Virus record (IMG/VR): IMGVR_UViG_3300035698_035307
Span: 87,521-151,520 of that record
Origin: a virus
Taxonomy: Duplodnaviria; Heunggongvirae; Uroviricota; Caudoviricetes
Length of the DNA stretch: 64,000 nucleotides
Strand: one strand, 5' to 3'
A program made the position numbers and the translations under genes. Positions 43,640 to 64,000 of the stretch are shown here, one piece after another; position 1 is the first letter of the stretch; every line of letters begins with the position of its first letter. The notes under the pieces are model-generated. The model saw only the letters and a program-made list of their open reading frames with translations, was not told the origin of the DNA and did not search any database.

Positions 43640-46600
43640 TTATCCAATTACAGTTACGGTAACTGCTCCGATTACTGCTGATGAATTAATTGTAATACTA
43701 TTGATTGATGTACGTACAATGTCAATATCAACTTCTGAGTCATCTGATTCATCCATAACTGATACTATAATTGCTTTAGTTCCTAAATTATGAGTTACTA
43801 CATTTGCACCGATTGATATTGCAAATCCTGTTACAGTATACTTATTAACGATATCGCTTAAGTAAGCTATTGTTTCGCCATTATATTCTAAATGACCATC
43901 TGTAATTTCAGTAATTCCTAAAGCTGATAAATCTAGCGTAGACCATTCTGCTAAACCATTACCATCTATATCTGTTAATACTTTTCCTATTCCGGTTGTC
44001 CTTCCATCGTCGAATTGGCCAATATAACTAGTTCCTGCACCTACGTTTCCAGTTATTACAGTTATACCAATATTGTTAGAACTATTAGATTGTTGTAATC
44101 TTGTATAAAAACCATAGTTAGGTGCTGATGTGTTTTCAGACATTGCAACTATACCATAACCTGCTCCACCAGAAACTGAAGGTAAACCATCTATTTGATT
44201 ATAACTACCTGTTCCAATTATACCGATATTCATATTAGTAGATTGGCCTGCTTGGCCAACTATACCCATATTTCTACCTGAATGTACTCCACTTGAATAT
44301 GAACGTATACCTGCAGAAACTGTTGTAAGTGTATTAACTGCATCTATAGCATAAGTTAATATATTTGTTGAAACCTTTAAAGTTGCAACTCCTGTTGCAG
44401 GTGCAGCTCCGATTCCTACGTTATCACCATCATCACGAATCATACCATATTCTAATGCATCTTCTCCTACATTAACTTTAAGAAGATAATCTGCATATCC
44501 AGTATAATCGTTTGGAGTATCTGTAAGTTCAGTAAATTCGTTTGCAGTTAAAACTGCGTTATCAACATATTCTTTATCAACTAAAGTCCTAGCTGTAAAG
44601 TTAGCAGAATAGTCATCTGCGTAATCTAGGCCTTTACTGTAAATATCATCTTTAAACACTTGACTTAAAGCAGTCTGTGAAAGATAAAGGCCTGCTTCTA
44701 CTCCTGAACTTACTTTAGTATAGATTTGGCCACCAGTATTGGCAATTAAAATACCAGTATTAGGGTACCCAGTTGAATTGTCTCTTTGTGCTATTGATAT
44801 TTGACCGCCGTTTAACCAAAACTCACTACGATCAGTACCGCTTATAGTTCTAAGTCTAACTAAGCCTGCCATATTATCTGCAGTAGCATCTACATTTAAA
44901 ACATCTTCCCATGAAGGTGTTGCAGGAACTACTGGTATATCTGTTAAATAAGCTATCGTATTACTATTGTATTCTAAATGACCATCTGTAATTTCAGTAA
45001 ATGTAGTTACGTCATCCAATAGAGCAAGTGTACCTGTTGCTGCTTGCATTGTTTGGAACCAAGGTCCTCCTGATGTAGGGAATAATATTGAAGCTGTATT
45101 AGAACTATCAGCTCTACGTATACTTCCTGTACCAAAATGCCATTGTACAGGTGCTGTTGTGATACTGTTAATAAGAACTATCTCAGAACCTGCTGTATTA
45201 AGTACTAAATTAGAACTTGATTGTGCAATGAAGCTTTGATTAGTAGCACCAAAGTATAATTGGTCAGTACCCATTTCAATATCTGTACCACCTGATGTGT
45301 TACCATTTGAAAGAACAGTAGCTAAAGTTGATATGCCACTATTTATAGATGGTTCCCATTTACCTGAAATACTATTATACTTAAGTACTTGGTCATTCTG
45401 TGGGTCACCTGTAGCAAACTGAACATCACTTAAGTCTTCTATAGATGCAGCTACATCTGAAAATTCAAGGGCAGTTTCACCTGCATTAACTCTTACGAAT
45501 TTAAGAGATTCTCCTGCATATGATGAAGGTGAATCAGTTAATGTTAAGAATGAAGTTACTGCAGAGTTAGTTGCAGGGGCCCAAAAACCACCTGATTGCC
45601 ATACAAGTACTTGACCTGTTGTAGGCGCAACTCCTGCGTTATAATCGTATACGTCTAATAGTTCGTATGCATAATCTTTAATCTGTGAAGCTAATGCAAA
45701 TGCAGGATAATCAAAAACTTTATCCCAATTTACATAACTTGCTACACCTGTTGAACCAAGTGCAGTCTGTGTATAATATAATGAATCTAAAGCACCACCA
45801 TCTAAATCAGCTTGTGAATATAAGCCAACATCAGATGCTATGCCATTAATCCAAAGTTGTGTTGCAAAATCAAAATATAATAAACTTTTATCTACTGGTG
45901 GTGAACCTGTTGTACTAACTTCAACATCAATAAGACTATTTAAACTTAAGTTGTTAGCAATTGCAAACAATTCATCAGCTGGTCTATTTCTCCAAGCTAA
46001 GTTAATACCATCCCATATAAGAACGTTAGGCATTATACCGTTTGTTCCAGGTGCTAATACACCGCCATTATTAAAATCTAATGGATTGACAAGTACATCT
46101 AACATATCTGAATTGACACGAAGTGTAACGTCTCCTGTTTTACCAGCTACTGTATTTACAGGTGCTGTAACATCTAATACGATATTGAATTTAGTACCTG
46201 AATCTACAATTGTGTAATCAACTACTGAATTTCCAGTTGCACCTTCTATGAAGTTTATAATATCTCTTTTGAATGCACTTACTGCTACACCACCTGCTTC
46301 CATGTTGATACCAGATTCTGCTAGAGAATTAAAAGTAACATCGTATCTATTATTCCCAATGTCTTCAGTAACAGTTATATCAATCTCAGTACCTTCAATG
46401 AAGTTTATAATTGGTTGGCTTGTTCCAATCTCAGTATTATTAAGACCTGCAGTTATCATCTGTCTAATAGAATCAGCAGTTTGAGCTATAGTAAATGTAC
46501 TACCTGCTCCTGCATCTGTAAAATTAATACCTAGTCCTGCTGTTATAGCACGTTCTGAACCTAGATAAGTATCGTTAGTTAATGTTAAGAATGTAGAATT

Positions 46601-47914
46601 AGCGATTGCCATTAAAGCATCACTTAAACCAACTACATCGGCAGATATTGAAATATAATCACTACCTGTTGTTTGGGCTATATCAAATACAAGAGTAGAT
46701 GTATCTACAAAATCAATATTTGAATAAGAACCTTGTAATAATGAATTGTCCCAAATAGTAACTTGTTGAATATTACTTCTATCGACAACTGATAGTGTCA
46801 TATTAGCTGTTGCGCCACCATCTGCTACATTAATTGTAGTATCACTTGAAAGAACTCTATAATTACTAAGAGGTGTTCCTACTGGTGTAACTGCTAATAA
46901 AAAAGGTTCATCATCAGGTACACCAGTTGGAGCTCCTGTAATGTTATTCCAATTTACTGATGCACCACCTGAGGTTTGTAAATTCGTTTGTGTATAATAT
47001 AATGAGTCATGGTTATGTTGTAATGGTGAACTAAGTCCTGTAGTAGAATTAGCTACTACACTTATATTAATCCAATTACTTCCATCAAATGTTAAGAATT
47101 GTCTAAGACTCGGTGCAGATATAGTAACATCAGTATGGTCGCCTAAAGCATGTGCACCAACAGAAGCTGATGAATTTTCCCATCTTTGAGTTCCTGAGTT
47201 ATATTGTAAAATGTCTTCATCTGCTAAAGATGAAATTAAAACATCTGAAATTTGAGTAATATTACTTAAAGAAGATGCTACATTAGAAATATAGTGTTGA
47301 TGTACGTCATAGTTACTTTTAAATGCAGCTAAATCGACACCATCAACTAAACCACCTACAGTAATAGAACCACTTATCCATGCTCCACCTTGTACCTGAA
47401 GCTTATCAGAACTCCAAGGTGTAGATGTACCAATTAAAACAGTGTCATTGTAATAAATTTCACTACCACCTGAAATTAATTGCCAAGGAGTTGCTACTCC
47501 AGAAATTACATCAATACGTGCAGTACTGCCTACCATCGTTACCTCAAGATTATTACCAAAGTCTAAAAGTATCGCAGCTGTTGGTAGTAAACCTGTATCA
47601 TCATCCTTGACAGCTACTTCACCTGTAAGTGATTGAGCACCAATTGGGTCCCATTTTGAAATATCAAATATGACACTTGGGTCATGGTTTACTGAAGCTC
47701 TCCACCATGATAATGCATATGCTGATGAGCCAGTTGCTACGCCAGTTACAGAAATATCTTCTTCTGCAATATAGACAATCATTCCTTCTTTGTACTTACG
47801 TAACGGCGACCACGAATTTGCAACGTATTGCTGGTTCTGGTCTAATTCTAAATGAGTTAATTCACTTAGTAATTCTGTACGCAATTTAAGTTTTTCTGGT
47901 AATATTATTGACAT
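43640..47914 (-). CDS. Long tail fibre protein (1424 aa), paralogous modules with 40011..43580.
   Basis: Contains FTEITDGHLEYNSNTIAYLTDIP, ITEITDGHLEYNGETIAYLSDIV and DYSANFTARTLVDKEYVDNAV, matching motifs in the preceding fibre. Confidence 0.6.
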   Translation of the reverse strand: MSIILPEKLKLRTELLSELTHLELDQNQQYVANSWSPLRKYKEGMIVYIAEEDISVTGVATGSSAYALSWWRASVNHDPSVIFDISKWDPIGAQSLTGEVAVKDDDTGLLPTAAILLDFGNNLEVTMVGSTARIDVISGVATPWQLISGGSEIYYNDTVLIGTSTPWSSDKLQVQGGAWISGSITVGGLVDGVDLAAFKSNYDVHQHYISNVASSLSNITQISDVLISSLADEDILQYNSGTQRWENSSASVGAHALGDHTDVTISAPSLRQFLTFDGSNWINISVVANSTTGLSSPLQHNHDSLYYTQTNLQTSGGASVNWNNITGAPTGVPDDEPFLLAVTPVGTPLSNYRVLSSDTTINVADGGATANMTLSVVDRSNIQQVTIWDNSLLQGSYSNIDFVDTSTLVFDIAQTTGSDYISISADVVGLSDALMAIANSTFLTLTNDTYLGSERAITAGLGINFTDAGAGSTFTIAQTADSIRQMITAGLNNTEIGTSQPIINFIEGTEIDITVTEDIGNNRYDVTFNSLAESGINMEAGGVAVSAFKRDIINFIEGATGNSVVDYTIVDSGTKFNIVLDVTAPVNTVAGKTGDVTLRVNSDMLDVLVNPLDFNNGGVLAPGTNGIMPNVLIWDGINLAWRNRPADELFAIANNLSLNSLIDVEVSTTGSPPVDKSLLYFDFATQLWINGIASDVGLYSQADLDGGALDSLYYTQTALGSTGVASYVNWDKVFDYPAFALASQIKDYAYELLDVYDYNAGVAPTTGQVLVWQSGGFWAPATNSAVTSFLTLTDSPSSYAGESLKFVRVNAGETALEFSDVAASIEDLSDVQFATGDPQNDQVLKYNSISGKWEPSINSGISTLATVLSNGNTSGGTDIEMGTDQLYFGATNQSFIAQSSSNLVLNTAGSEIVLINSITTAPVQWHFGTGSIRRADSSNTASILFPTSGGPWFQTMQAATGTLALLDDVTTFTEITDGHLEYNSNTIAYLTDIPVVPATPSWEDVLNVDATADNMAGLVRLRTISGTDRSEFWLNGGQISIAQRDNSTGYPNTGILIANTGGQIYTKVSSGVEAGLYLSQTALSQVFKDDIYSKGLDYADDYSANFTARTLVDKEYVDNAVLTANEFTELTDTPNDYTGYADYLLKVNVGEDALEYGMIRDDGDNVGIGAAPATGVATLKVSTNILTYAIDAVNTLTTVSAGIRSYSSGVHSGRNMGIVGQAGQSTNMNIGIIGTGSYNQIDGLPSVSGGAGYGIVAMSENTSAPNYGFYTRLQQSNSSNNIGITVITGNVGAGTSYIGQFDDGRTTGIGKVLTDIDGNGLAEWSTLDLSALGITEITDGHLEYNGETIAYLSDIVNKYTVTGFAISIGANVVTHNLGTKAIIVSVMDESDDSEVDIDIVRTSINSITINSSAVIGAVTVTVIG

Positions 47915-49794: not shown

Positions 49795-50280
49795 TTAAGG
49801 TAGCCGTGGATTCTTCCACTTGATATCAGGTATGAATGATACTGTACTTTTTAATAATACGTAAATAAGTTCCCATTCTGTATTAGGATTGAAACCAGCT
49901 TTGTCTTCGAACATTACATCGAAATACGGTTTAAGTTTATAATAACCGAACATTCCATTCTCTTCGCAGATTTCTGGATTTTCGTTAAGATATTTAAAAT
50001 TGATACCGTCTTTCTTAAATAGTTCATCGTATCCTTTTAATTCTTCAGGATAAGAACTTGTAAATATTATCGTTCTAATATCTTGCCTATTAGTTAATAT
50101 TTGTAGGACTTCTTTTGCATATGGGTAATATACAACTTCGCAGTTACCTCTTCTATGATTAGGTTCTATTATTGTTCCGTGCAAGTCGAAGAGCCAAAAT
50201 GATTCATACCATTTATTCCGATGTTGCCTAGCCCATTGCTTTTGTATTACGTCTACTAACATATTATAACATATTTTCAA
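49795..50280 (-). CDS. HAD-like hydrolase / nucleotidase candidate (161 aa).
   Basis: N-terminal ...FWLFDLHGTII... resembles HAD motif I (DxDGT), but the second Asp is replaced by His. Sits in the nucleotide-metabolism neighbourhood. Weak call. Confidence 0.25.
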   Translation of the reverse strand: MKICYNMLVDVIQKQWARQHRNKWYESFWLFDLHGTIIEPNHRRGNCEVVYYPYAKEVLQILTNRQDIRTIIFTSSYPEELKGYDELFKKDGINFKYLNENPEICEENGMFGYYKLKPYFDVMFEDKAGFNPNTEWELIYVLLKSTVSFIPDIKWKNPRLP

Positions 50281-52141
50281 ATTCGTCTTTATCTAGAATA
50301 GTAATTCCTAAAGCAAGTGCATCATTTTCCTTTGATGTTCCGCTTCCTTTAGCTTTCATTACTAACATTGTAGCTTTCTTATTTACTTTCTTACCAATTG
50401 TTCCACCTTCAGCTACTATTCTTACTTCAGCATCTTTGTTTCTGTAACCAGTAAATACTATAACTTGGTCTTTAAACTGGCTGCCAGTAACTACTGGAGC
50501 GGCTTCAGGTTCAGAAATTGTACATGGTAAATCTTCAACCCATTCGTTAAATAAGTGAATACCTTTCATGAACATATTTGCTGACTTAGTTGAGAAGCCA
50601 TCAATTTTGCAAATCTCAATATTTGGAGTTTTTGAATGATGAACAAAATCAAATTCAATTAAAGCTTTTTCAATTAAAGCTAATTTTTTACTTCCAAGAC
50701 CTTGAAAAAATCCTGATGCATGTTGTAAAATAGGTAGTGATATGTTTTGTAATTTACTATGAATACCTTCGTAAATCTTTTCTGCTCTTCTTTGTCCAAT
50801 TCTTTCAAGACCGATTAAATCTTCAAGTGACATTGCTAAAATCTTTTTGATTGAATCAAAACCAGCTTCAACTACTGTATCAATTGTACCTTCTGAAAAG
50901 CTATCTGAATCAATAGTTTTAAAGAATGAGTATAATTTTGTTATTGCGATTGCAGGACATTCAGGATTGATACACATTAAATCAATGTCTGATTCATTCC
51001 AACTTAATTCTTTACCACATTCTGGGCAATGTGTAGGTACGATTGCATCCATTGGTGTAATTACTTCAACAACTTTAGGAATAACCATTCCACTTCGTTT
51101 GATTGTAATTTCAGCACCAGGTGCAAGTTCCATATTGATTACCGTTCTCCAGTTATATAGAGTTACGTTCGATACAGTAGCACCATCACATTTAACTGGA
51201 TTAACTTGACCAACTGGTGCAAGTTTACCTGTTTTAGATACTTGAGAAATGATTGCGTTTAATTTTGTAGGTTTAACTTCTTCGAAGTTTCCTTTGAATG
51301 CTCTTGCGTAAGCTGGATTTGGTTTTGAAGTTTCTCTTCCAAGTTCTTTTCTTATCTCTGCATTGTTTACATCGATTATAATACCATCAATCTCGTAGTC
51401 TTTAGACCACTTTTCAAATAATTCAGTAATAATTTCTACTGTGATTTCAGATGCATTACAAACTGTATACATTACTGGAACTTCGTTTAATTGATTACAA
51501 AATTCAATTTGTTCTAATTTAGATACTTCTAAACCTGAATGGTATGCTACACCGTAACGAATATAATCACAATCAGCAAGCATTGCATTTGGTGTTTTAT
51601 GATTTAACTGACCTGCTACCATGTTACGAGGATTTGCAAATTCATCTGCGTATTTATCAGCGAATGTATCACGTCTCATAATAACTTCACCGAAACAATA
51701 TGCATCGTAGTCATTTTTACATGAACCAATGATTTCATAATGTTCAGTTGAGCGTTGTCCTTTAATACCGTTTCCTCTTGTCCAAGCTTTATTAGAAGAA
51801 TTTTCTTCAGTAGCTAGTGAAAGGCCGTCGTATTTTGCAGAAAGAACTAATAATTCGTCATCTTTAATTCCTTTTGATTTTAGCCACTTTTTATATTCTT
51901 CAATTGTTTTGATTTTATTCATTGAACCCATAATAATCGGAAGGTCTTCCATTCTATCATCAGATGCATCTGCAAATCCAATTTCAGAGATAAAAGTATC
52001 TTCACCATAAAGTGAAACATATTCGTCGACAAGTGTGTCATATAGACTGTCTTCGATTATTGCTTCACCTTTACGATAAGCTTCGTTAGCTGCGATTAGC
52101 TCCTTTTGCTTGTTTATTTGTGGTATTGTAAGTTTCGACAT
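50264..52141 (-). CDS. ligA: NAD-dependent DNA ligase LigA (625 aa).
   Basis: Adenylation motif I KYDGLS (KxDG). Cys4 zinc finger CPECGKELSWNESDIDLMCINPECPA. C-terminal HhH and BRCT-like region (VIVFTGYRNKDAEVRIVAEGGTIGKKVNKKATMLVM). Confidence 0.85.
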   Translation of the reverse strand: MSKLTIPQINKQKELIAANEAYRKGEAIIEDSLYDTLVDEYVSLYGEDTFISEIGFADASDDRMEDLPIIMGSMNKIKTIEEYKKWLKSKGIKDDELLVLSAKYDGLSLATEENSSNKAWTRGNGIKGQRSTEHYEIIGSCKNDYDAYCFGEVIMRRDTFADKYADEFANPRNMVAGQLNHKTPNAMLADCDYIRYGVAYHSGLEVSKLEQIEFCNQLNEVPVMYTVCNASEITVEIITELFEKWSKDYEIDGIIIDVNNAEIRKELGRETSKPNPAYARAFKGNFEEVKPTKLNAIISQVSKTGKLAPVGQVNPVKCDGATVSNVTLYNWRTVINMELAPGAEITIKRSGMVIPKVVEVITPMDAIVPTHCPECGKELSWNESDIDLMCINPECPAIAITKLYSFFKTIDSDSFSEGTIDTVVEAGFDSIKKILAMSLEDLIGLERIGQRRAEKIYEGIHSKLQNISLPILQHASGFFQGLGSKKLALIEKALIEFDFVHHSKTPNIEICKIDGFSTKSANMFMKGIHLFNEWVEDLPCTISEPEAAPVVTGSQFKDQVIVFTGYRNKDAEVRIVAEGGTIGKKVNKKATMLVMKAKGSGTSKENDALALGITILDKDEFENML

Positions 52142-56542: not shown

Positions 56543-56575
56543 AAAAAAAACCGGAACTGATGTAGTCCCGGTTTT
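56543..56575 (-). terminator. Terminator-like hairpin after the flotillin gene.
   Basis: A8 (56543-56550), stem ccgg...ccgg extended as aaaaccgg / ccggtttt with a 13-nt loop, then a T-run. Bidirectional in form. Confidence 0.5.
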
Positions 56576-56594: not shown

Positions 56595-58187
56595 CTACTT
56601 ATCATCTTTCTTTTCGATTTTAGCTTTGGCTTCTTCGATTACTTTCTTAGCATCGATTTTACCTTCTACATTACCTTTTTCAGCAAGCTTCGCTCTTTCA
56701 CCAGCACCTTGCATGAATTGTGGCATCTCAGCTCCAGCTTGTTCGAACATCTCTTTTAATGGTGGTACCATTCCAAGTAGTCCTTGCATGAAGCCAGCTG
56801 TTGATGTTTGACCATCTGAACCGCTTCCAGAACCTGAGTCCCAAACTGTTACTTTATCAATCTTCACATTCTTGATTGCTTCTACTTGAATCTTGATTAA
56901 TTCTGGTAATTTATCTGCAATCATTAATTGTACCGCTTTGTCACTTGAACCAGCTGCTTGTACTAATCTATCAAAACCGTCTGCTTGTTTTGTAAGTATC
57001 TCATTGATACCTTTCGCTTCTGCTTCCATCATCGCGAACTTAGCATCAGCCTTACCTTGTGCTACTCTACGGATTGCTTCTGCTTCTGCTTCTGCATTGA
57101 TTTCAATTTCTTCCTTAGCAATTTGTGCTGGGATTACAGTATCTGCATACTGTGAGGCTTTATCTTTCTTCGCTCTTTGCTTTTCAGCTTCTTCCTGGGC
57201 AATATAAGATTCTTTGTTAGCTTCTGCTTTCTTAACATTGAAAGCTGCAACTGATTTTCTTTCAGCTTCTGCTTCAGCTACTTTTCTTGTAGCAGTAGTA
57301 TTTGCAATTGCGACTTGTGAAGCATTTTCACCTTCAATCGCTGTAGCATTCATAGATGCTGTTGCAACTCTTTTTCTTTGTTCAGCATCTGCTTCACCAA
57401 TTTCTGATTTAGATATTGCTTCTGCAACTTGAACACGCTTGTCTTGGTCAGCTGCTGCTTCTCCAATTTCTGCTGTAGCATGAGCTGCTGCTACTTCAGT
57501 TCTCTGTGATTTCTCAGCTGTTGCAACTCCAATTGCACCACTTCTGTTTTTATCTGCAACAGATACTTTCGCTTCGTTGATAGCTGCGGCTGAAGCTTCC
57601 TTACCAAGAGCATCAATATAACCAGACTCATCTGTTATATCTGTGATGTTTACGTTGATAAGCTTTAAACCAATCTTCTGTAATTCATCTTCTAAGTTTT
57701 GTTGAATATTTAATAAGAACTTATCACGGTCAGCGTTAATTTCTTCAATATCCATTGTTGCAATTACAAGTCTCATTTGACCGAAGATGATATCTTTTGC
57801 TAGACCAGCAATATCAGTTCTTGAAAGGCCAAGTAGTCGTTCTGCAGCGCTTTCTCTTACACCTTCTGATGCAGATACTGCTACTGTAAATGTAGATGGT
57901 ACATCAATACGAATATTCTGTTTTGAAAGTGCATTCGTTAGATTTACATCAATTGCAATTGGTTTTAAATCAAGAAATTCATAATCTTGAATAACAGGCC
58001 AAATAAACTGTGCGCCACCATGAACTACTTTCGCGGTTGCTGTTTCTCCTGAAGCCTTCTTCCCGGTTTTACCGTAAATAACCATCAGTTTGTCCGAAGG
58101 ACATCGTTTGTATCGTTTTACCATCGCTACGATAAAGGCAAATGCTGCAACTACTGCAACTCCAATAATAATTAAATTGTACATCAT
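56595..58187 (-). CDS. Flotillin-like SPFH/Band-7 protein (530 aa).
   Basis: N-terminal TM helix, SPFH domain, then long Ala/Glu-rich flotillin repeats (AEAEAERK..., EINAEAEAEAIRRVAQGKADAKF) and a C-terminal tail, like bacterial YqiK/FloT. Confidence 0.8.
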   Translation of the reverse strand: MMYNLIIIGVAVVAAFAFIVAMVKRYKRCPSDKLMVIYGKTGKKASGETATAKVVHGGAQFIWPVIQDYEFLDLKPIAIDVNLTNALSKQNIRIDVPSTFTVAVSASEGVRESAAERLLGLSRTDIAGLAKDIIFGQMRLVIATMDIEEINADRDKFLLNIQQNLEDELQKIGLKLINVNITDITDESGYIDALGKEASAAAINEAKVSVADKNRSGAIGVATAEKSQRTEVAAAHATAEIGEAAADQDKRVQVAEAISKSEIGEADAEQRKRVATASMNATAIEGENASQVAIANTTATRKVAEAEAERKSVAAFNVKKAEANKESYIAQEEAEKQRAKKDKASQYADTVIPAQIAKEEIEINAEAEAEAIRRVAQGKADAKFAMMEAEAKGINEILTKQADGFDRLVQAAGSSDKAVQLMIADKLPELIKIQVEAIKNVKIDKVTVWDSGSGSGSDGQTSTAGFMQGLLGMVPPLKEMFEQAGAEMPQFMQGAGERAKLAEKGNVEGKIDAKKVIEEAKAKIEKKDDK

Positions 58188-58242
58188 TGTTTTTAAAAAA
58201 TTAAGTTAAATTAAACATTTATAAATATTACTACTAAAAATT

Positions 58243-58821
58243 CTACTTTTGTTTCACAACCATTAGATGACCTCTAATGTCTGTTACTTCTACTGTTGCA
58301 CCTCTTGGTATAAATCCAGTATCTGATATTACATCAACTTCTCGAATTGCTCCACCATTAAGTACATTAGCTTTTCCTTTTCCACCTTCTTGAACTGCAA
58401 GGGTAACAGTACCAGTCTTACCAACTGAATGAATTAGTTTGGGACTGCGGTCAACTGCAAGCTTTTTCATACCATACATCAACATCGTCATCATAACTAC
58501 CATACTTAAACCTGCTAAGGTTGCCCATAGAGTAGTATATCCTAAACCAACATCTTGATTAATACATGCAATTCCAGTCCAACTGAACATTACAAAGAAA
58601 TTCATTAAGTTCTTAAATGAGAACCAACCGAACGAAGCTCCTGCATCTCCTTGTGCATTATCTACGTCAGCATCAAAATCTGTATCTGTGTCTAAATCAC
58701 CGTCACTATCTAATCCTAAGAATATCATCATGAACTGTATCAAAAATACTAGCGATGTGGGTATCGCTATAAACCAAAGCACCTTTTCAAATCCTGTTAG
58801 TGCATCAAAAAATTCCATCAT
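58243..58821 (-). CDS. NfeD-like membrane protein (partner of SPFH proteins), 192 aa.
   Basis: Multiple TM segments plus a C-terminal OB-fold signature ...GKTGTVTLAVQEGGKGKANVLNGGAIREVDVISDTGFIPRGATVEVTDIRGHLMVV... Gene order NfeD then flotillin is as in bacterial yuaF-floT and yqiJ-yqiK. Confidence 0.65.
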   Translation of the reverse strand: MMEFFDALTGFEKVLWFIAIPTSLVFLIQFMMIFLGLDSDGDLDTDTDFDADVDNAQGDAGASFGWFSFKNLMNFFVMFSWTGIACINQDVGLGYTTLWATLAGLSMVVMMTMLMYGMKKLAVDRSPKLIHSVGKTGTVTLAVQEGGKGKANVLNGGAIREVDVISDTGFIPRGATVEVTDIRGHLMVVKQK

Positions 58822-58886: not shown

Positions 58887-59939
58887 CTAAAATTCCCCAT
58901 CAATTATGTTCAGAAAGTTTTCTCTAATCAGTAAAGCGTTATTTGAACCTACTTTCTTAGTTATAAACTTCTGTTCCTTTTTATCAAGCTTCATAAAATC
59001 TTCTCTGTTATCTTTCATAAAATCTTCGATAACATCTTTGTTCATATTACCCATAAGCATACCAAAATCCTTATCTGTAATAGTTCCAATCTTAGAGATA
59101 ACATTCTTCAGCCTATTCTCTGTCACATGACTGTCCATGATATCAAACAGCCTCTGAACCTCTTCAGAAACAATAACTTCCTCTTTTGGAACTCTATCTT
59201 TCTTAGGCTTCTTTGCAACTTCTGCAAATAGTTCATTCTTGTTCTTAAGAATAACTCTACTACCTGACCACATAAAATCTGGTTGTACAGGAATAATTAC
59301 ATTACCTTCACAGATATTCTCTACATCAATTTCTGGTAGACCTAATCTAGCAGGTATTGTAGACTTGTAAGCATTCTCATAAGCTAGACATTCTTCTAGC
59401 GTTCCTCTGAATAGAGGTTTCGTTCTAAATATATTACCAGCATCACATAATGTCGCGAATGTATCATAATCTACAAGTTCGCCATTGATTTTAATATCAA
59501 ATGCGTAAATATGATTATCAGGTGAGTAAAATACGCCTTTCTGACATCTTACTGCATGTGGACTTTTTGCTACTTCTGGATGGGGGTAAGAACCGCCAAA
59601 GATTTCACCATAAATTGTAAGTGTCTCAAGCTCAGGAGCTTCTTCTCCTTGTAGTGCAAGTTGATTACGCATAAGAGTAATAATATTCCAGATTTTTTCA
59701 ATGCCTGCTTTATTAGCTTCCATTACTACACCTGAATTATTAAATCCTTTCGGGTCATCAACAAAACCAGAACGCTTACCAGCTTTTAATTCATTACCAT
59801 CAAACCAAAGTGAAAAATTAGAGCCGTGTATTTTCTCGGTCACAACCCATTCGCCACCAGATTTACCTTGTTCTGCAATCTGATTTAGGAACTTAGTCCT
59901 ATAACTGTTTTCTATACTTGAAAATTTTGTAAATTCCAT
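58887..59939 (-). CDS. RNA ligase 2 (T4 Rnl2 family), 350 aa.
   Basis: N-terminus MEFTKFSSIENSYRTKFLNQIAEQGKSGGEWVVTEKIHGSNFSL is near-colinear with T4 Rnl2 MFKKYSSLENHYNSKF...GGEWVAREKIHGTNFSL (KxHG motif I). The C-terminal ...NVISKIGTITDKDFG... matches the Rnl2 C-domain. Confidence 0.85.
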   Translation of the reverse strand: MEFTKFSSIENSYRTKFLNQIAEQGKSGGEWVVTEKIHGSNFSLWFDGNELKAGKRSGFVDDPKGFNNSGVVMEANKAGIEKIWNIITLMRNQLALQGEEAPELETLTIYGEIFGGSYPHPEVAKSPHAVRCQKGVFYSPDNHIYAFDIKINGELVDYDTFATLCDAGNIFRTKPLFRGTLEECLAYENAYKSTIPARLGLPEIDVENICEGNVIIPVQPDFMWSGSRVILKNKNELFAEVAKKPKKDRVPKEEVIVSEEVQRLFDIMDSHVTENRLKNVISKIGTITDKDFGMLMGNMNKDVIEDFMKDNREDFMKLDKKEQKFITKKVGSNNALLIRENFLNIIDGEF

Positions 59940-60727
59940 TATATTTCAAAAAATTTAGATGTGCTATACTCTGGAGTTTCTCCATAACCTGCATAACCCA
60001 TTTGATTACTAACTACTTTTGTTCCATTTATTTCTGCATCAATATTCCTATGTGTATGACCATAAATCCAATGACTGATATCAAAATCGTGAATCCAATC
60101 AAAAAGTTCTACTACAAATCCAGCGTTAATTGGACTACCTTTAAAATCAGGATGATTAACCATCTGAGTAGGAGCATGATGCGTAACTACTACATTCTTT
60201 TCTCCTTTATGTTCTTCGAGTGCATCGTGCAAAAATCCTCTTGCTTCAAGGTGTAGTTTATTATACCTCATAGAGGTCAAAGGTTTTGGGTATTTTTGAT
60301 ACTCTTCCCAATACTTAATTACCCTGAAGTCGTTTAATCCTTTTGTGACATTCGTTATGTCATTATAATTACTCAAAGAAGACCACAGTGTAGTACAGAT
60401 AAAATTAACACCTTCAAATTTTACTATATCATTGTTAACTAACAATACATTTTCCCTAATCTTTTTATTGAGTTTAGGCTCTTTCAATAATTTATAATCT
60501 GCGTTATAATATTCATGGTTGCCAGGTATCATTATTACTAATTTCCACTTTTCAGAGAAATAATCAAAAATCTGGTCACTGTAATGTGAATCATTCATTT
60601 TTGTGATATCACCAGCAAGAACAAGTACATCACCGACAGGGATGATAGGATTATCTGATATCTCATCTCTGTTGGTGTACATTTCTAAATGTAAGTCTGA
60701 CGCGTATTGTATTTTTAATTTTGCCAT
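59939..60727 (-). CDS. Calcineurin-like metallophosphoesterase (262 aa); candidate 2',3'/3'-phosphate end-healing phosphatase.
   Basis: MPP motifs: SDLHLE (DxH), LAGDITK (GD), GNHEYY (GNHE), GHTHRN (GHxH). Confidence 0.75.
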   Translation of the reverse strand: MAKLKIQYASDLHLEMYTNRDEISDNPIIPVGDVLVLAGDITKMNDSHYSDQIFDYFSEKWKLVIMIPGNHEYYNADYKLLKEPKLNKKIRENVLLVNNDIVKFEGVNFICTTLWSSLSNYNDITNVTKGLNDFRVIKYWEEYQKYPKPLTSMRYNKLHLEARGFLHDALEEHKGEKNVVVTHHAPTQMVNHPDFKGSPINAGFVVELFDWIHDFDISHWIYGHTHRNIDAEINGTKVVSNQMGYAGYGETPEYSTSKFFEI

Positions 60728-60764: not shown

Positions 60765-61598
60765 TTAGGGCATTAAATTTAATAAAAAGTCTCTATCTTG
60801 AGATATGATAGGAATATCTACTGTTTCCCAAGCTGAACGTGTTATGCCAGTTGCTCTTGCAGAAATATCACCAGATGACATCATATCATAACTCTGTACA
60901 ACAACGTTGTCAACTCTTGTAATCTTCTTCACAAAACCACCACGTTTGAAACGTATTGGCTCATCATTCCAGTTAATTTTCTTTTCAAGCATTAACATAT
61001 CCTGCATGTCATTTGTCTTCTTGCCGTGTAATTCATTTTGGCTGAAGTACGCTTGAGCTAACATACTAATACTATTCCTTGTTGCATCTTGTTGTCTCCA
61101 AAGAAAATAGTTTACAACTTCTTCTTGGTTTGGAATTACAAATACTCTTGCATCAAATTCCGCAACTCTCATTGTACTTAATACTTTTGAGATATCAGTA
61201 CCGGGTTCTTGATTCCCTATAGCTCTAATATAGCGTAGTTGATTAAACTTACTCGTTGCCATAGAAGCAGCTACTGATACCATCTTTTGGATTTTATTAC
61301 CAAACCAAGCATCTGTCTCTAGCTTATCGTAGTCTGTTAATAGAAGTGATATTTCATCACTCTGAACATAACCACATTTACAGCCCTGAATATTCTTACA
61401 AAGATATTGAGTTGTTGCATCCATGTCATCATTTAATCCAGTATCATACGGTTTTTTAAGGCCACGAGTGTACGTGTGAAATGCCTTACCGTCAAGTCTG
61501 ATGATAATGTTTGTTCTGCGGGGCATAGTATGGTTAAATATACCTTCATAGAATGTTTTCATTCTGTCCCCTAAAGCGTCTTTTACTTTTTTTGCCAT
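60765..61598 (-). CDS. Thg1-like protein (tRNA-His guanylyltransferase family; 3'-5' nucleotidyltransferase), 277 aa.
   Basis: ...DRMKTFYEG...NIIIRLDGKAFHTYTRGLKKPYD...GYVQSDEISLLL...KMVSVAASMATSKF...FDARVFVIPNQEEVVNYFLWRQQD... is colinear with the Thg1 signatures VVVRLDGRNFHRF...KPND, GQSDEYSFVF, FDGRVVVYPS...YLSWRQAD. Confidence 0.7.
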   Translation of the reverse strand: MAKKVKDALGDRMKTFYEGIFNHTMPRRTNIIIRLDGKAFHTYTRGLKKPYDTGLNDDMDATTQYLCKNIQGCKCGYVQSDEISLLLTDYDKLETDAWFGNKIQKMVSVAASMATSKFNQLRYIRAIGNQEPGTDISKVLSTMRVAEFDARVFVIPNQEEVVNYFLWRQQDATRNSISMLAQAYFSQNELHGKKTNDMQDMLMLEKKINWNDEPIRFKRGGFVKKITRVDNVVVQSYDMMSSGDISARATGITRSAWETVDIPIISQDRDFLLNLMP

Positions 61599-61600
61599 AA

Positions 61601-62092
61601 TTATTTTAATTTACTGATGCTAAAATCTTCATTTAACTGAAGCTGATGGCCTTTCCATTTAGTCGGATTAACATCGAGCCATTCTTTAATATCTTTTTTT
61701 ACTGTTTTAATTCTATTTGCATTCCAGTCTTTAACTAAGTGGGCCAATACGTATTGCTTTGCTTTAATTTCATATGCTTCAGTATCAATATTCCATTTCT
61801 TAGCTTCAGATATAGCATACATCTCTGCAAGGTATTCATTAACATAAGATATCTCATGCCAACCTTCAGCGATGTGACCAATTTCATGTAGACATATTAA
61901 GAATGCTGTCCTGTTTTTAGGTACAGGAAGCATCACAGTCTTGCTGTCTTGGAATGCAATATAAGAAGCAGCATTCAAACTTTTATACCATTTCTTAACG
62001 TGAATGTCAAGACGTCGTATGTATAATCTGACTACTGCTTCATAAAAATCTGCTGTGTTATCGTATAAGTCTCTAGGACAATATTTGTTCAC
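61601..62092 (-). CDS. HExxH zinc-metallohydrolase-like protein (163 aa).
   Basis: LICLHEIGHIAEGWHE contains HExxH followed by a third His six residues on (metzincin/ImmA-like spacing is imperfect). Function unassigned. Confidence 0.35.
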   Translation of the reverse strand: MNKYCPRDLYDNTADFYEAVVRLYIRRLDIHVKKWYKSLNAASYIAFQDSKTVMLPVPKNRTAFLICLHEIGHIAEGWHEISYVNEYLAEMYAISEAKKWNIDTEAYEIKAKQYVLAHLVKDWNANRIKTVKKDIKEWLDVNPTKWKGHQLQLNEDFSISKLK

Positions 62093-63099
62093 TAGTTTTT
62101 ATATTTTGTAAACCATAACTTGAAATGTGATTTAACTTCTTCAGGAGTACTGTTAAGCATAAATCTCCTGTAAGCTTCTCCGAGAAAATTTTTATACCAA
62201 CCAATAACTTCACCTAATTGCTTACCTTTAAGATATGGATATAATTCCATAATAATACGACCATTAAATTTAGTTTTAATAAGCTGGTTCTCACCATCAG
62301 TCTTCTTAATCTTAGCAAGCTTTTCTAGAAAATTAGCTTCAGGAAAATACTCGTTAATCATTTGAATGTAATCTTCTTTATTCTTAGAAAATTCAAACTT
62401 ACTGATTGGTTTATGTTCATTAATATAAGTAAGGAATTGTTGATAAGTATCTCTCTTTGCATTACGCTTACGGTCAATATGATTAAGATTGTCCATCATG
62501 TAGTTTTCACCGTTAAAGTACTTACTACCAATGATATAATCAAAAATCTCTTGAACTGTATCAAATGTTTGAAGATATCTGTCATAATCAAGGCCAAGAA
62601 ATTCAAAAATCTTAGAATTATCTAAGCTGATTGTAATATCTTCACTAAGTCTACCATCATAATTTCTAAATGGATAAACTAAACCTTGAAAACCATATTT
62701 AAGTCCAAACTTATGAGCAAGTTTACCCATTAAGTTACCAGTTGGGTCAAAGTCAAAGAAACATTTTGCAGTTTCCCATCTGCTAGTTGGTTGAGGAATA
62801 ATATCAATTTGAAAAGCTTTGTATTCAAAACTAAAAACACCGCCGTTACAATGAACTGCGTGAACATCTTTAAATTCTGATTGAATTTTTTCTTTAATGT
62901 TTCCTAAGTTTCCTGAATTAAGAATTAAAAGGTCCATGTCACCATGACTCTCTTTTGTATTATATGCTCGAACATTATGAACTTCTGTATTAAAAAGTTT
63001 CTCAATACGAGGTTTAACTTCCTTTACGATTTCATTATATTCTGGAGTATCATAACGTCTTGTTTCAATACCATACTGCTTCATTGCTCTTCCACCCAT
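62092..63099 (-). CDS. Hypothetical protein (335 aa) with a possible minimal nucleotidyltransferase motif (hGDxD).
   Basis: ...NTKESHGDMDLLILNSG... resembles the Pol-beta-superfamily hG[GS]...DxD active site, but the upstream Gly-Ser is not canonical. Weak call. Confidence 0.25.
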   Translation of the reverse strand: MGGRAMKQYGIETRRYDTPEYNEIVKEVKPRIEKLFNTEVHNVRAYNTKESHGDMDLLILNSGNLGNIKEKIQSEFKDVHAVHCNGGVFSFEYKAFQIDIIPQPTSRWETAKCFFDFDPTGNLMGKLAHKFGLKYGFQGLVYPFRNYDGRLSEDITISLDNSKIFEFLGLDYDRYLQTFDTVQEIFDYIIGSKYFNGENYMMDNLNHIDRKRNAKRDTYQQFLTYINEHKPISKFEFSKNKEDYIQMINEYFPEANFLEKLAKIKKTDGENQLIKTKFNGRIIMELYPYLKGKQLGEVIGWYKNFLGEAYRRFMLNSTPEEVKSHFKLWFTKYKN

Positions 63100-63124: not shown

Positions 63125-63182
63125 TAGGGTAAATATATAATAAATTCCTCAGAATCCAAAGTATTATCTGAGATTTACCCTA
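63125..63182. promoter_or_regulatory. Nested inverted repeat (10-bp outer arms tagggtaaat / atttacccta; 6-bp inner arms ctcaga / tctgag) in the intergenic region between the kinase and the 335-aa gene.
   Basis: Outer arms 63125-63134 and 63173-63182. Inner arms 63148-63153 and 63167-63172. Overlaps the kinase stop codon. No U-tract. Confidence 0.4.
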
Positions 63183-63606
63183 ATTTAATGTCAAATCTTT
63201 CTCTCATTCTTTCTAATGCTACTTCTGGTACACCGTGAGCGTTTACGCCACCATGTCTATTCTCAGTAATCAAAGAAACAACAATATAGTTATGCTTCTC
63301 AGCAAGTTTATAATAGTCTTTCAATTCTTTTTGAGTAGTAGAAGTATTGGCTACAAATACCTTCTCAGTACCTTCAATCATAGCATTCTCACATTTAGTT
63401 TGACATGCTTTATGTGCTGCACCTAATTTAGAAGCATCAAACATATATTTGCCACCTCTCATAAAATAGTCATCTGCAGTACAGACTGGGTATTTATAAG
63501 TCTCACCACCAAATTCAGAAGCTACTCCTGAATCAGCTAAAGCTTCAGCTGCTGTAGTTTTACCAGAACCTGGTATTCCTCTTATAATAAATAAAATATT
63601 TTTCAT
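63175..63606 (-). CDS. P-loop 5'-OH polynucleotide kinase (Pnk-like, AAA_33-type), 143 aa.
   Basis: Walker A ILFIIRGIPGSGKTTAAEALA at the N-terminus, as in the T4 Pnkp kinase domain (ILTIGCPGSGKSTWA). Small size and context within the RNA-repair cassette. Confidence 0.65.
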   Translation of the reverse strand: MKNILFIIRGIPGSGKTTAAEALADSGVASEFGGETYKYPVCTADDYFMRGGKYMFDASKLGAAHKACQTKCENAMIEGTEKVFVANTSTTQKELKDYYKLAEKHNYIVVSLITENRHGGVNAHGVPEVALERMRERFDIKLG

Positions 63607-63622: not shown

Positions 63623-64000
63623 TTAACGTCCACCTGCATCACACAAGTTAAACTCCATAATTCCTTTAAAGTCAGGTAAGTTTTCAAAAGCTTCTAACTT
63701 AACCTTCTTCTTAATTTGTCCAGACTTGAACAAATGTGCTTTCATGTGATTTTTACACATTGCGTAAACTGTATCTTTATCAATACCTAAATCCATGAAC
63801 TTATCAATATGAGCATCAATGTATTTCAAAGAAACAATCTCATGTCCATAATGAGTAATTCTTTCTACACCATTCTTAACTCTTAATCTTGTAGTCTCTG
63901 GTTTTCCTAAATCATGGAAGATTGCAGAAACTAAAAGGTTAATATCACCTGGATAGTGAGTATCAGCAAAGTTGAAAACCAACTCAATGTGATTGTATAC
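63623..64000 (-). CDS. HD-domain phosphohydrolase, N-terminus outside the window (partial).
   Basis: ...THYPGDINLLVSAIFHDLGKPET...HYGHE... (H...HD...H motif). The ORF stays open to position 64000; the 63982 'start' in the ORF track is a TTG, not ATG. Its position directly upstream of the Pnk gene mirrors the HD-Pnk fusion order of Runella slithyformis. Confidence 0.6.
   Translation of the reverse strand, partial: VYNHIELVFNFADTHYPGDINLLVSAIFHDLGKPETTRLRVKNGVERITHYGHEIVSLKYIDAHIDKFMDLGIDKDTVYAMCKNHMKAHLFKSGQIKKKVKLEAFENLPDFKGIMEFNLCDAGGR

What the first reader, a model, noticed from the sequence alone, without database searches (positions are those of the whole stretch)
60765..61598. Thg1-like 3'-5' nucleotidyltransferase in a phage
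The 277-aa protein tracks Thg1/TLP signatures along its length (…IIIRLDGKAFH…KPYD…; …GYVQSDEISLLL…; …SKF…; …FDARVFVIPNQEEVVNYFLWRQQD…). These include the acidic residues that bind the two catalytic metals (D of RLDG; SDE). Bacterial and archaeal Thg1-like proteins repair 5'-truncated tRNAs by templated reverse-direction polymerisation. In a phage, next to Rnl2 and a phosphoesterase, it suggests repair of tRNAs whose 5' end or acceptor stem has been nicked or trimmed by a host defence nuclease. It could also support maturation of phage tRNAs if the genome has any.
Basis: partly seen in the sequence, partly recalled or inferred. Interest (0 to 1): 0.75.

Follow-up and report, generated by a model that had tools for sequence, protein, structure and literature searches.

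The report
Phage Thg1-like reverse RNA polymerase
A phage gene encodes an intact Thg1-like enzyme, which adds nucleotides to RNA 5' ends in the reverse (3'-5') direction, inside a cluster of RNA-repair genes; such genes are already annotated in many phages, but their role in infection has never been tested.

Summary
ORF 60765-61598 (minus strand, 277 aa) is a Thg1-like protein (TLP). It scores 101 bits on Pfam PF04446 and E=4e-61 against the solved Bacillus thuringiensis TLP, and its predicted fold superposes on that structure (TM 0.91). All catalytic and nucleotide-binding residues are present. It belongs to the bacterial TLP clade, not the eukaryote-type tRNA-His-specific Thg1: the HINNLYN anticodon motif is absent.

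The gene lies in a co-directional, tightly packed island: HD phosphohydrolase, P-loop kinase, Pol X-like nucleotidyltransferase, small HExxH protein, TLP, metallophosphoesterase, Rnl2. Just beyond the window lie Rnl1, a PTH2-like hydrolase, NAD-salvage genes and one CUA-anticodon tRNA. This order is kept only in close relatives.

The most likely role is templated rebuilding of 5'-truncated tRNA acceptor stems within a phage RNA-repair toolkit. That role is inferred, not shown.

The finding is not new in kind. TLP genes are annotated in 164 phage records and form PHROG 4717. Comparative-genomics papers from 2010 and 2021 already proposed this counter-defence repair role.

No bacterial defence known to me or named in the papers I read trims tRNA 5' ends.

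Verdict: new member of a known kind, modest interest.

The parts
60765..61598 (-). Thg1-like protein (TLP), 277 aa: 3'-5' templated nucleotidyltransferase. Key residues: E18, R34, D36, K49, S80-D81-E82, K105, R151, R168, M179. Long C-terminal beta-hairpin at residues 221-260.
   Evidence: Residue roles from PMC3701042. dN/dS 0.08-0.17 against relatives.
61601..62092 (-). 163-aa protein with invariant HExxH (H69, E70, H73) plus E86: putative small zinc metallopeptidase-like protein of unknown role. Its stop lies 2 nt before the TLP start, and its start overlaps the upstream gene's stop by 1 nt.
   Evidence: No Pfam, PHROG or PDB sequence match for the window protein; 2 of 27 family members weakly hit Peptidase_M78.
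62092..63099 (-). 335-aa Pol-beta-superfamily nucleotidyltransferase. The N-terminal ~165 residues resemble the palm and thumb of family X polymerases. Conserved carboxylates D54, D56, D99. C-terminal helical domain.
63175..63606 (-). 143-aa P-loop kinase (AAA_33): candidate polynucleotide 5'-kinase.
   Evidence: Pfam AAA_33 28.4 bits. PHROG 2071 E=6e-36 and PHROG 505 'polynucleotide kinase' E=2.8e-7. It matches the C-terminal half of PHROG 6931, whose N-terminal half matches the adjacent HD protein.
63623..64000 (-). HD-domain phosphohydrolase, cut by the window end. Full length is 158 aa on contig L001 (5168-5644). Candidate 3'-end healing enzyme.
   Evidence: Pfam HD 20.5 bits, below the cut-off of 22. 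Weak matches to the HD region of CCA-adding/repair enzymes (NCBIfam) and to Aquifex A-adding enzyme (PDB 3wfo, E=2e-5). Matches positions 59-155 of PHROG 6931.
59939..60727 (-). 262-aa calcineurin-like metallophosphoesterase. Its stop overlaps the Rnl2 start by 1 nt.
   Evidence: Pfam Metallophos E=1.1e-13. PHROG 1649 E=2.5e-47.
58887..59939 (-). Rnl2-family RNA ligase (nick-sealing type), 350 aa.
   Evidence: Pfam RNA_ligase and T4_Rnl2_C. TIGR02307 equivalog 211.8 bits, above the cut-off of 197. T4 Rnl2 2hvq E=8e-31.
56547..56575 (-). Terminator-like hairpin (12 bp stem followed by a T-run) just after the SPFH gene: probable 3' end of the transcription unit that holds the island.
   Evidence: This is a consensus scan only; terminator-like sites numbered 11 against 3.4 expected.

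Best explanation
The gene encodes a catalytically intact bacterial-type Thg1-like protein (TLP).

Mechanism, inferred from characterised homologues:
1. It binds a tRNA whose 5' strand of the acceptor stem is short by one or more nucleotides.
2. It activates the 5'-monophosphate with ATP or GTP, or uses a 5'-triphosphate directly.
3. It adds the missing nucleotides one at a time in the 3'-5' direction, templated by the 3' strand, using two metals held by D36 and D81.
4. The C-terminal beta-hairpin contacts the tRNA elbow and stops extension when the stem is complete.

In this phage it is one tool in an RNA/tRNA repair island. The P-loop kinase would supply the 5'-phosphate. The HD protein and the metallophosphoesterase would heal 3' ends. 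The Pol X-like nucleotidyltransferase would refill 3' ends. Rnl2 and Rnl1 would seal breaks.

The island would keep the host or phage tRNA pool usable during infection, most plausibly against host nucleases.

Shown here: family membership, intact active site, fold, purifying selection, gene arrangement. Inferred: substrate, cooperation with the neighbours, and the counter-defence purpose.
For: Identity:
- Pfam PF04446 101 bits; PHROG 4717 E=2.5e-89; BtTLP 4kgk E=4.3e-61 against about 1e-10 for eukaryotic Thg1; structural TM 0.91 to BtTLP.

Active site:
- BtTLP residues E12, R28, D30, K43, S74-D75-E76, R131, R147 and M158 align to E18, R34, D36, K49, S80-D81-E82, R151, R168 and M179 (roles from PMC3701042).
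- R34, D36, S80-E82, R151 and R168 are invariant and E18 is nearly invariant in 24 relatives. Position 49 is K or R, and position 179 varies.
- dN/dS is 0.08-0.17.

Context:
- Kinase, Pol X-like NTase, HExxH protein, TLP, phosphoesterase and Rnl2 are co-directional. The NTase/HExxH and phosphoesterase/Rnl2 pairs overlap by 1 nt, and the HExxH stop lies 2 nt before the TLP start.
- The same order is kept in relatives with 72-76% identical TLPs, even with a homing endonuclease inserted.
- Rnl1, a PTH2-like hydrolase, NAD synthase and a nicotinamidase-like gene lie just upstream.
- A 58%-identical TLP sits within 10 kb of a PolyA_pol/CCA-family enzyme, an RNA ligase and RNase T.
- HD and kinase are fused in PHROG 6931, as expected for an end-healing pair.

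Literature:
- Thg1 associates with polynucleotide kinase and RNA ligase in bacterial operons (PMC2904730).
- The same toolkit is described for jumbo phages (PMC7824862).
Against: - No activity was measured.
- The bacterial tRNA-targeting defences described in the papers I read cut the anticodon loop, the T-loop or the 3' CCA tail. I know of none that removes 5' nucleotides, so the damage TLP would repair is hypothetical.
- The linkage to Rnl2, the phosphoesterase and the Pol X-like NTase is lineage-specific. Among 80 other viral TLP loci (+-10 kb, tblastn E<=1e-5), Rnl2 appears in 1, the phosphoesterase in 0, the NTase in 0 and the kinase in 3.
- In cultured phages (PMBT8, Eldridge) TLP is flanked by hypothetical genes.
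- The kinase is assigned to polynucleotide kinases only weakly (PHROG 505 E=2.8e-7; no PDB match).
- Gene adjacency in a phage early or middle region may reflect common timing rather than a shared pathway.
Confidence: 0.6

Rival explanations
1. tRNA-His maturation or maintenance. The enzyme adds or restores G-1 opposite C73 on tRNA-His (host or phage), as its database name 'tRNA-His guanylyltransferase' implies.
For: - This is the annotation in 164 phage records and PHROG 4717.
- BtTLP adds G-1 opposite C73 efficiently (kcat/KM 5500 M-1 s-1; PMC3061083).
- MaTLP keeps a second, anticodon-dependent binding mode for tRNA-His (PMC4820378).
- In some viral loci a tRNA-His gene lies next to TLP, for example 24 nt downstream in L058.
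Against: - No tRNA-His gene occurs in the window or in the further 8.4 kb of the same phage held on contig L002 beyond the window's right end.
- The HINNLYN anticodon-reading motif is replaced by DATRNSIS (PMC6471195).
- Of 11 distinct tRNA-His genes in the fetched TLP- and NTase-homologue loci, most carry a genomically encoded G at -1 with C73, so post-transcriptional addition is not required.
- BtTLP prefers truncated tRNAs of any identity.
Confidence: 0.13
2. Quality control or maturation of phage-encoded tRNAs. TLP repairs 5' ends mis-cut during processing of densely packed phage tRNA genes, rather than damage inflicted by the host.
For: - 21 of 80 viral TLP loci carry tRNA genes within 10 kb. 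In about 10 of them TLP sits inside arrays of 10-35 tRNAs (L069, L077, L080, L058, L060, L022).
- In several Bacteroidota MAG contigs TLP lies 1.3-2 kb from arrays of 7-9 tRNAs.
- This phage has a tRNA (anticodon CUA, Rfam 74.7 bits) about 5 kb upstream of TLP.
Against: - Only one tRNA was found in about 72 kb of this phage, and its acceptor stem is fully paired, so nothing needs editing.
- The closest relatives' loci have no tRNA genes.
- No background rate of tRNA genes in random phage loci was computed, so the enrichment is not quantified.
Confidence: 0.15
3. Non-tRNA substrate. TLP extends or activates (adenylylates or guanylylates) the 5' ends of other RNAs, for example broken rRNA or mRNA, primers, or App-RNA handed to the ligases.
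For: - Dictyostelium TLP4 acts on non-tRNA RNAs, and the biological substrates of bacterial TLPs are unresolved (PMC6471195).
- Anantharaman et al. raised ligation via a 5'-App intermediate (PMC2904730).
- This clade has a beta-hairpin about 19 residues longer than BtTLP's and a further insertion of about 14 residues, which could change substrate recognition.
Against: - All biochemically tested bacterial and archaeal TLPs act on tRNA.
- The hairpin is the tRNA-elbow-binding element in MaTLP. A near-invariant Arg (R254) and an invariant Trp (W257) sit on it in this clade.
- tRNA-related neighbours (PTH2-like gene, tRNA gene) are present.
Confidence: 0.1

Closest known systems
Bacillus thuringiensis Thg1-like protein (BtTLP; PDB 4kgk/4kgm)
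   Same: It is the best sequence match (E=4.3e-61) and the best structural match (TM 0.91 normalised to the target; 38-42% identity in the Foldseek alignment). The three carboxylates, the activation lysine, the triphosphate-binding arginines and Met at the position where eukaryotic Thg1 has Asn are the same. The predicted activity is the same: templated 3'-5' repair of 5'-truncated tRNAs.
   Different: The phage protein is 32 residues longer. About 14 extra residues lie between residues 123 and 146, and the C-terminal beta-hairpin is about 19 residues longer. It is encoded by a phage inside a repair-gene island rather than by a bacterium. Activity is untested.
Phage 'tRNA-His guanylyltransferase' genes (PHROG 4717; e.g. 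Bacillus phages Bc431v3, Eldridge, BM10; Staphylococcus phage PMBT8; Pseudomonas phage 201phi2-1; Pectobacterium phage CBB)
   Same: Same family, at 45-52% identity to the best-ranked 40 of 164 GenBank phage records (all 164 are below 60%). All are annotated from homology only.
   Different: No near-identical phage is in the collection. In those phages the gene is flanked by hypothetical genes or tRNA arrays. Here it is flanked by Rnl2, a phosphoesterase, a kinase and a Pol X-like NTase.
Eukaryotic Thg1 (yeast, human, Candida; PDB 3otb, 3wbz, 5xox)
   Same: Same superfamily, palm fold and two-metal chemistry.
   Different: Only about 20% identity. The HINNLYN anticodon-recognition motif is absent. 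The expected activity is templated and anticodon-independent, rather than non-templated G-1 addition to tRNA-His.
T4-type phage RNA repair (Pnkp + Rnl1/Rnl2) and the jumbo-phage RNA-repair toolkit of Iyer et al. 2021
   Same: The components match: Rnl1, Rnl2, P-loop kinase, HD and calcineurin-like phosphoesterases, a Pol-beta-superfamily NTase, Thg1, PTH2, NAD-salvage enzymes and Nudix.
   Different: End-healing activities are on separate small proteins, not a fused Pnkp. The NTase is not a detectable RlaP or CCA-adding family member and looks most like Pol X. A HExxH protein is inserted between the NTase and TLP. None of the parts has been assayed.

Membership tests
Thg1/TLP superfamily (Pfam PF04446) | Significant match to the Thg1 catalytic-domain profile over its full length | tested here: met
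   101.3 bits against a gathering score of 29.2; profile positions 2-130 of 130.
Thg1/TLP superfamily (Pfam PF04446) | Three conserved carboxylates (hTHG1 D29, D76, E77 = BtTLP D30, D75, E76) | tested here: met
   D36, D81 and E82 align to them and are invariant in 24 relatives. Roles from PMC3701042.
Thg1/TLP superfamily (Pfam PF04446) | Activation and nucleotidyl-transfer residues (BtTLP E12, R28, K43, S74, R131, R147) | tested here: met
   E18, R34, K49, S80, R151 and R168 are aligned. All are invariant or nearly invariant except position 49, which is K or R.
Thg1/TLP superfamily (Pfam PF04446) | Polymerase-like palm fold with C-terminal extension | tested here: met
   AF2 model pLDDT 87. 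All 32 PDB matches with E<=0.001 are Thg1/TLP chains, with TM up to 0.93. The Pfam Thg1C domain alone scores 23.9 bits, just under its cut-off of 26.3.
Thg1/TLP superfamily (Pfam PF04446) | 3'-5' nucleotide addition activity | not testable with these tools
   Needs an enzyme assay.
Bacterial/archaeal TLP clade (templated 5'-end repair enzymes) | Closer to characterised TLPs than to eukaryotic Thg1 | tested here: met
   BtTLP E=4.3e-61 against 2e-10 to 4e-10 for Candida, yeast and human Thg1. The structural ranking is the same.
Bacterial/archaeal TLP clade (templated 5'-end repair enzymes) | C-terminal beta-hairpin that binds the tRNA elbow, with a conserved Arg (MaTLP R215) | tested here: inconclusive
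   A long hairpin is predicted (strands 221-239 and 245-260), with near-invariant R254 and invariant W257. Equivalence of R254 to MaTLP R215 was not checked by superposition. The hairpin is about 19 residues longer than in BtTLP.
Bacterial/archaeal TLP clade (templated 5'-end repair enzymes) | Preference for 5'-truncated tRNA over full-length tRNA-His; Watson-Crick templating | not testable with these tools
   Known for BtTLP and MaTLP (PMC3061083). Not measured here.
[quoted passage not shown] | HINNLYN motif that reads the GUG anticodon | tested here: not met
   The aligned segment is DATRNSIS. The His position is T173 (motif role from PMC6471195).
[quoted passage not shown] | Asn at the activation-site position (ScThg1 N161 / hTHG1 N158) | tested here: not met
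   Met179, as in BtTLP M158.
Phage RNA-repair pathway (end healing plus sealing, T4 Pnkp/Rnl type) | ATP-dependent RNA ligase present | tested here: met
   Rnl2 equivalog TIGR02307 is above its cut-off. An Rnl1-family gene (PF09511 48.8 bits) lies 5 kb upstream on L001.
Phage RNA-repair pathway (end healing plus sealing, T4 Pnkp/Rnl type) | Polynucleotide 5'-kinase | tested here: inconclusive
   P-loop AAA_33 kinase. PHROG 505 'polynucleotide kinase' only E=2.8e-7. No PDB sequence match.
Phage RNA-repair pathway (end healing plus sealing, T4 Pnkp/Rnl type) | 3'-phosphatase / 2',3'-cyclic phosphodiesterase | tested here: inconclusive
   Calcineurin-like and HD-domain proteins are present. Their substrate specificity cannot be read from sequence.
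RlaP (RNA-ligase-associated Pol-beta NTase) or CCA-adding enzyme, considered for the 335-aa neighbour | Profile match to the family | tested here: not met
   [not shown]

The most novel reading that the evidence does not exclude
The translationally coupled trio of Pol X-like NTase, HExxH protein and TLP may be a dedicated two-directional acceptor-stem rebuilding module. The Pol X-like enzyme would refill the 3' strand (5'-3', templated) and TLP the 5' strand (3'-5', templated). The kinase, HD and metallophosphoesterase proteins would heal the ends and Rnl2 would seal the remaining nick. This would let the phage reverse acceptor-stem or tail cleavage by host immunity, such as tail-cutting Cas12a3-type nucleases or a 5'-trimming nuclease not yet discovered. 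The elongated beta-hairpin of this TLP clade would then be an adaptation to more deeply truncated stems.
Probability: 0.12. Interest if true: 0.75.

Novelty: new member of a known kind. Interest (0 to 1): 0.3.

Why it matters
The physiological substrate of bacterial and phage Thg1-like proteins is still open. The reviews I read list only in-vitro activities.

A phage in which TLP is embedded among a kinase, phosphoesterases, a Pol X-like nucleotidyltransferase and two RNA ligases offers a compact genetic system. It could test whether reverse polymerisation really serves tRNA repair during infection, and what damage it repairs. If it does, that would point to a host defence that attacks tRNA 5' ends or acceptor stems.

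As it stands, the finding adds one more member, with an informative neighbourhood, to a family already recognised in phages.

Tried and rejected
- Near-identical phage genome: none in 50,697 GenBank phage records (megablast).
- tRNA genes in the window: none (ARAGORN; Rfam). One was found only outside the window.
- Conservation of the cassette around TLP in other phages: rejected at BLAST sensitivity. Rnl2 appears in 1 of 80 loci, and the phosphoesterase, NTase and HExxH protein in 0 of 80. From the NTase side, TLP lies within 10 kb in only 5 of 79 loci.
- Bacterial TLP loci share none of the window's neighbours.
- Defence-system identity: no PADLOC hit for TLP, only domain-level hits for neighbours.
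- The 335-aa neighbour as a CCA-adding enzyme or RlaP: not supported.
- Sigma-70 promoter scan: no enrichment, 37 found against 38.5 expected.
- The HExxH protein: no Pfam, PDB or PHROG match for the window protein. Only 2 of 27 relatives weakly hit Peptidase_M78.
- The AFDB50 fold library was unavailable. Burroughs & Aravind 2016 (PMC5062991) was not held.
- TAG recoding as an explanation of the CUA tRNA: not supported in the window. TAG ends 11 of 49 long ORFs and no ORF is visibly broken.
Full report
**Observation.** Every quoted peptide is in the translation.

The similarity to Thg1 is not a matter of a few motifs:
- Pfam PF04446 matches over the whole catalytic-domain profile at 101.3 bits (cut-off 29.2).
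- PHROG 4717 'tRNA-His guanylyltransferase' matches at E=2.5e-89.
- The best solved relative is the Bacillus thuringiensis Thg1-like protein (4kgk), at E=4.3e-61 over residues 7-223.
- An AlphaFold model built on 24 relatives (pLDDT 87) superposes on 4kgm/4kgk with TM 0.89-0.93 normalised to the target. All 32 PDB matches with E<=0.001 are Thg1/TLP chains.

The window is a tailed phage. Baseplate wedge, baseplate hub and baseplate PHROG families are present, all long ORFs run on one strand, and GC is about 33%. No near-identical genome is among 50,697 GenBank phage records. The identical protein occurs on ten metagenome contigs.

**Which kind of Thg1.** The residues that Hyde et al. showed to matter in BtTLP (PMC3701042) align to the phage protein as follows:

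| BtTLP | Phage protein |
|---|---|
| E12 | E18 |
| R28 | R34 |
| D30 | D36 |
| K43 | K49 |
| S74-D75-E76 | S80-D81-E82 |
| R131 | R151 |
| R147 | R168 |
| M158 | M179 |

Most of these are invariant or nearly invariant in an alignment of 24 relatives. Position 49 is K or R, and position 179 varies. Within the lineage dN/dS is 0.08-0.17, so the gene is under purifying selection.

The protein belongs to the bacterial/archaeal TLP clade, not the eukaryote-type tRNA-His enzyme:
- It is 50 orders of magnitude closer to BtTLP than to yeast, human or Candida Thg1.
- The HINNLYN motif that reads the His anticodon (PMC6471195) is replaced by DATRNSIS.
- The activation-site Asn of eukaryotic Thg1 is Met, as in BtTLP.

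Two differences from BtTLP stand out. There is an insertion of about 14 residues at 123-146. The C-terminal beta-hairpin (strands 221-239 and 245-260) is about 19 residues longer. In the archaeal MaTLP-tRNA complex this hairpin binds the tRNA elbow and acts as the ruler that stops extension (PMC4820378). Its length varies widely among the phage relatives.

**Surroundings.** TLP lies in a co-directional, tightly packed block. Reading in the direction of transcription:
1. HD-domain protein, cut by the window end; 158 aa on contig L001.
2. P-loop AAA_33 kinase (63175-63606).
3. 335-aa protein (62092-63099).
4. 163-aa protein (61601-62092). Its start overlaps the previous stop by 1 nt, and its stop lies 2 nt before the TLP start.
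5. TLP.
6. Calcineurin-like metallophosphoesterase (59939-60727).
7. Rnl2-family ligase (58887-59939), overlapping the phosphoesterase by 1 nt.

Further downstream lie an NfeD/SPFH pair, then a strong terminator-like hairpin at 56575-56547, then a Nudix gene.

Contigs carrying the identical TLP extend beyond the window. They show, upstream, NAD synthase, an isochorismatase-family gene (likely nicotinamidase), an Rnl1-family ligase, a tRNA gene, a PTH2-like peptidyl-tRNA hydrolase (24 bits, cut-off 23) and several unknown genes.

The HD protein and the kinase match the two halves of one PHROG family (6931). In other phages they are therefore one fused protein, as expected for an end-healing pair.

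**The 335-aa neighbour.**
- It has no Pfam or NCBIfam family.
- It has conserved carboxylates D54, D56 and D99.

**The 163-aa neighbour.**
- It has an invariant HExxH plus a downstream Glu.
- It belongs to an undescribed family of about 180 representative sequences.

**Is the neighbourhood meaningful?** In the three closest relatives (TLP 72-76% identical) the order kinase, NTase, HExxH, TLP, phosphoesterase, Rnl2 is kept. This holds even where a GIY-YIG homing endonuclease has been inserted. A 58%-identical TLP lies within 10 kb of a PolyA_pol/CCA-family enzyme, an RNA ligase and RNase T.

Beyond that the linkage disappears. In 80 other viral TLP loci (+-10 kb) Rnl2 is detectable in 1, the kinase in 3, and the phosphoesterase, NTase and HExxH protein in none. 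From the NTase side, TLP is within 10 kb in 5 of 79 loci, and four further contigs hold both genes 15-85 kb apart.

A different association does recur. 21 of 80 viral TLP loci carry tRNA genes, and in about ten of them TLP sits inside arrays of 10-35 tRNAs. Several Bacteroidota MAG contigs show TLP 1.3-2 kb from 7-9 tRNA genes. The NTase family likewise co-occurs with the PTH2-like gene (25 of 79 loci) and with tRNA genes (36 of 80).

Across phages, then, the common denominator of TLP's context is tRNA, not a fixed repair operon.

**Mechanism.** BtTLP, the nearest characterised enzyme, adds any of the four nucleotides in a Watson-Crick templated manner. It prefers 5'-truncated tRNAs by 5- to 160-fold over full-length tRNA-His, and it repairs tRNA-Phe as well (PMC3061083).

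I therefore take the phage enzyme to rebuild the 5' strand of shortened acceptor stems. It would activate a 5'-monophosphate with ATP or GTP, then add nucleotides 3'-5' using the two metals on D36 and D81. The hairpin would measure completion.

The kinase two genes upstream would supply the 5'-phosphate. This echoes the Thg1-polynucleotide-kinase operons noted by Anantharaman et al. (PMC2904730). The rest of the island supplies 3'-end healing, nucleotide refilling and sealing.

Family, active site, fold, selection and gene order are shown. Substrate, cooperation and purpose are inferred.

The main weakness is the lack of a known cause of damage. The bacterial tRNA-directed defences described in the papers I read cut anticodon loops, T-loops or 3' CCA tails (PMC12851939, PMC13462974). 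I know of none that trims 5' ends.

**Rivals.**
- tRNA-His G-1 addition is what the database name says, and BtTLP can do it opposite C73. Against it, this phage shows no tRNA-His gene in about 72 kb, and the anticodon motif is missing. Most of the 11 distinct tRNA-His genes in the fetched TLP- and NTase-homologue loci already encode G-1 with C73.
- Quality control of phage-encoded tRNAs is supported by the tRNA-array association in other phages. Only one tRNA, with a perfectly paired stem, is seen here.
- A non-tRNA substrate cannot be excluded, given the longer hairpin and the unresolved biology of TLPs.

**Comparison with what is known.** Phage Thg1/TLP genes are not new:
- Anantharaman, Iyer and Aravind reported one in phage 201phi2-1 in 2010. 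[quoted passage not shown]
- Bc431v3 (2013), CBB (2017) and BM10 (2018) were annotated with it.
- Iyer et al. 2021 listed Thg1 among the jumbo-phage RNA-repair enzymes, next to Rnl1/Rnl2, kinases, HD and calcineurin-like phosphoesterases, Pol-beta NTases, PTH2, NAD salvage and Nudix. The island found here matches that list almost item for item.
- tblastn finds the family in 164 GenBank phage records, and 323 IMG/VR contigs encode a relative.
- No paper in the searched library reports an assay of a phage TLP.

**Verdict.** The functional interpretation is reasonable, already published as a hypothesis, and untested.

This is a new member of a known kind. Its neighbourhood is unusually informative and it has two minor peculiarities: the elongated ruler hairpin, and tight coupling to a Pol X-like NTase and a HExxH protein. 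Interest is about 0.3.

Noticed in passing
L001 2604-2676 (+), equivalent to about 66591-66663 on the window's minus strand, 2.6 kb beyond the window's right end: A tRNA gene with anticodon CUA (amber-suppressor type; ARAGORN calls it 'tRNA-Pyl'; Rfam tRNA 74.7 bits) lies directly after the Rnl1 gene, with no encoded CCA and a fully paired acceptor stem. CUA tRNAs also lie next to TLP in two other viral loci (L037, 138 nt upstream; L057).
   Followed up: partly
window, minus-strand ORFs (e.g. stops at 62092, 58887, 58243, 56595): TAG terminates 11 of 49 long ORFs. Read-through would add only 0-26 codons, and 0-4 in eight cases, before the next stop. The phage would therefore tolerate its own amber suppressor. 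No sign of TAG recoding inside genes.
   Followed up: partly
[not shown]
   Followed up: partly
window 61601-62092 (-): Small protein with invariant HExxH...E, wedged between the NTase and TLP with a 1-nt overlap upstream and a 2-nt gap downstream. It belongs to an undescribed family (182 representatives at E<=0.001). Only 2 of 27 members weakly hit Peptidase_M78.
   Followed up: partly
L069, L077, L080, L058, L060, L022 (viral); L176, L178, L179, L181, L183 (Bacteroidota and other MAG contigs): TLP genes are embedded in or adjacent to large tRNA gene arrays (up to 35 tRNAs within 20 kb). I found no paper in the searched library that links tRNA arrays and this enzyme.
   Followed up: partly
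window 56595-58821 (-): An SPFH/flotillin-like protein (530 aa) and an NfeD-like membrane protein form a pair inside the phage, between the repair island and a Nudix gene. The pair is conserved in the relative L089.
   Followed up: no
L001 762-1397; L002 575-1450; window 50264-52141 (-): NAD-related genes: NAD synthase and an isochorismatase-family gene (likely nicotinamidase) upstream of the island, and an NAD-dependent DNA ligase in the window. This suggests NAD salvage by the phage.
   Followed up: no
L087 560-3319 and 10914-11750; L089 3728-4561: Mobile elements disrupt the island in relatives: intein-like segments upstream, an Rnl2 reduced to its C-terminal domain call in L087, and a GIY-YIG homing endonuclease inserted between the phosphoesterase and Rnl2 in L089.
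   Followed up: no
window 3679-8694, 8794-12363, 40011-43580, 43640-47914 (-): Very large ORFs (1671, 1189, 1189 and 1424 aa) with no functional PHROG assignment, or only families of unknown function. The 40011-43580 product ends in a head-decoration-like domain.
   Followed up: no
window 60765-61598, residues 221-260 of the product: The beta-hairpin that acts as the acceptor-stem ruler in archaeal TLP is about 19 residues longer than in BtTLP, and its length varies strongly among phage relatives.
   Followed up: partly
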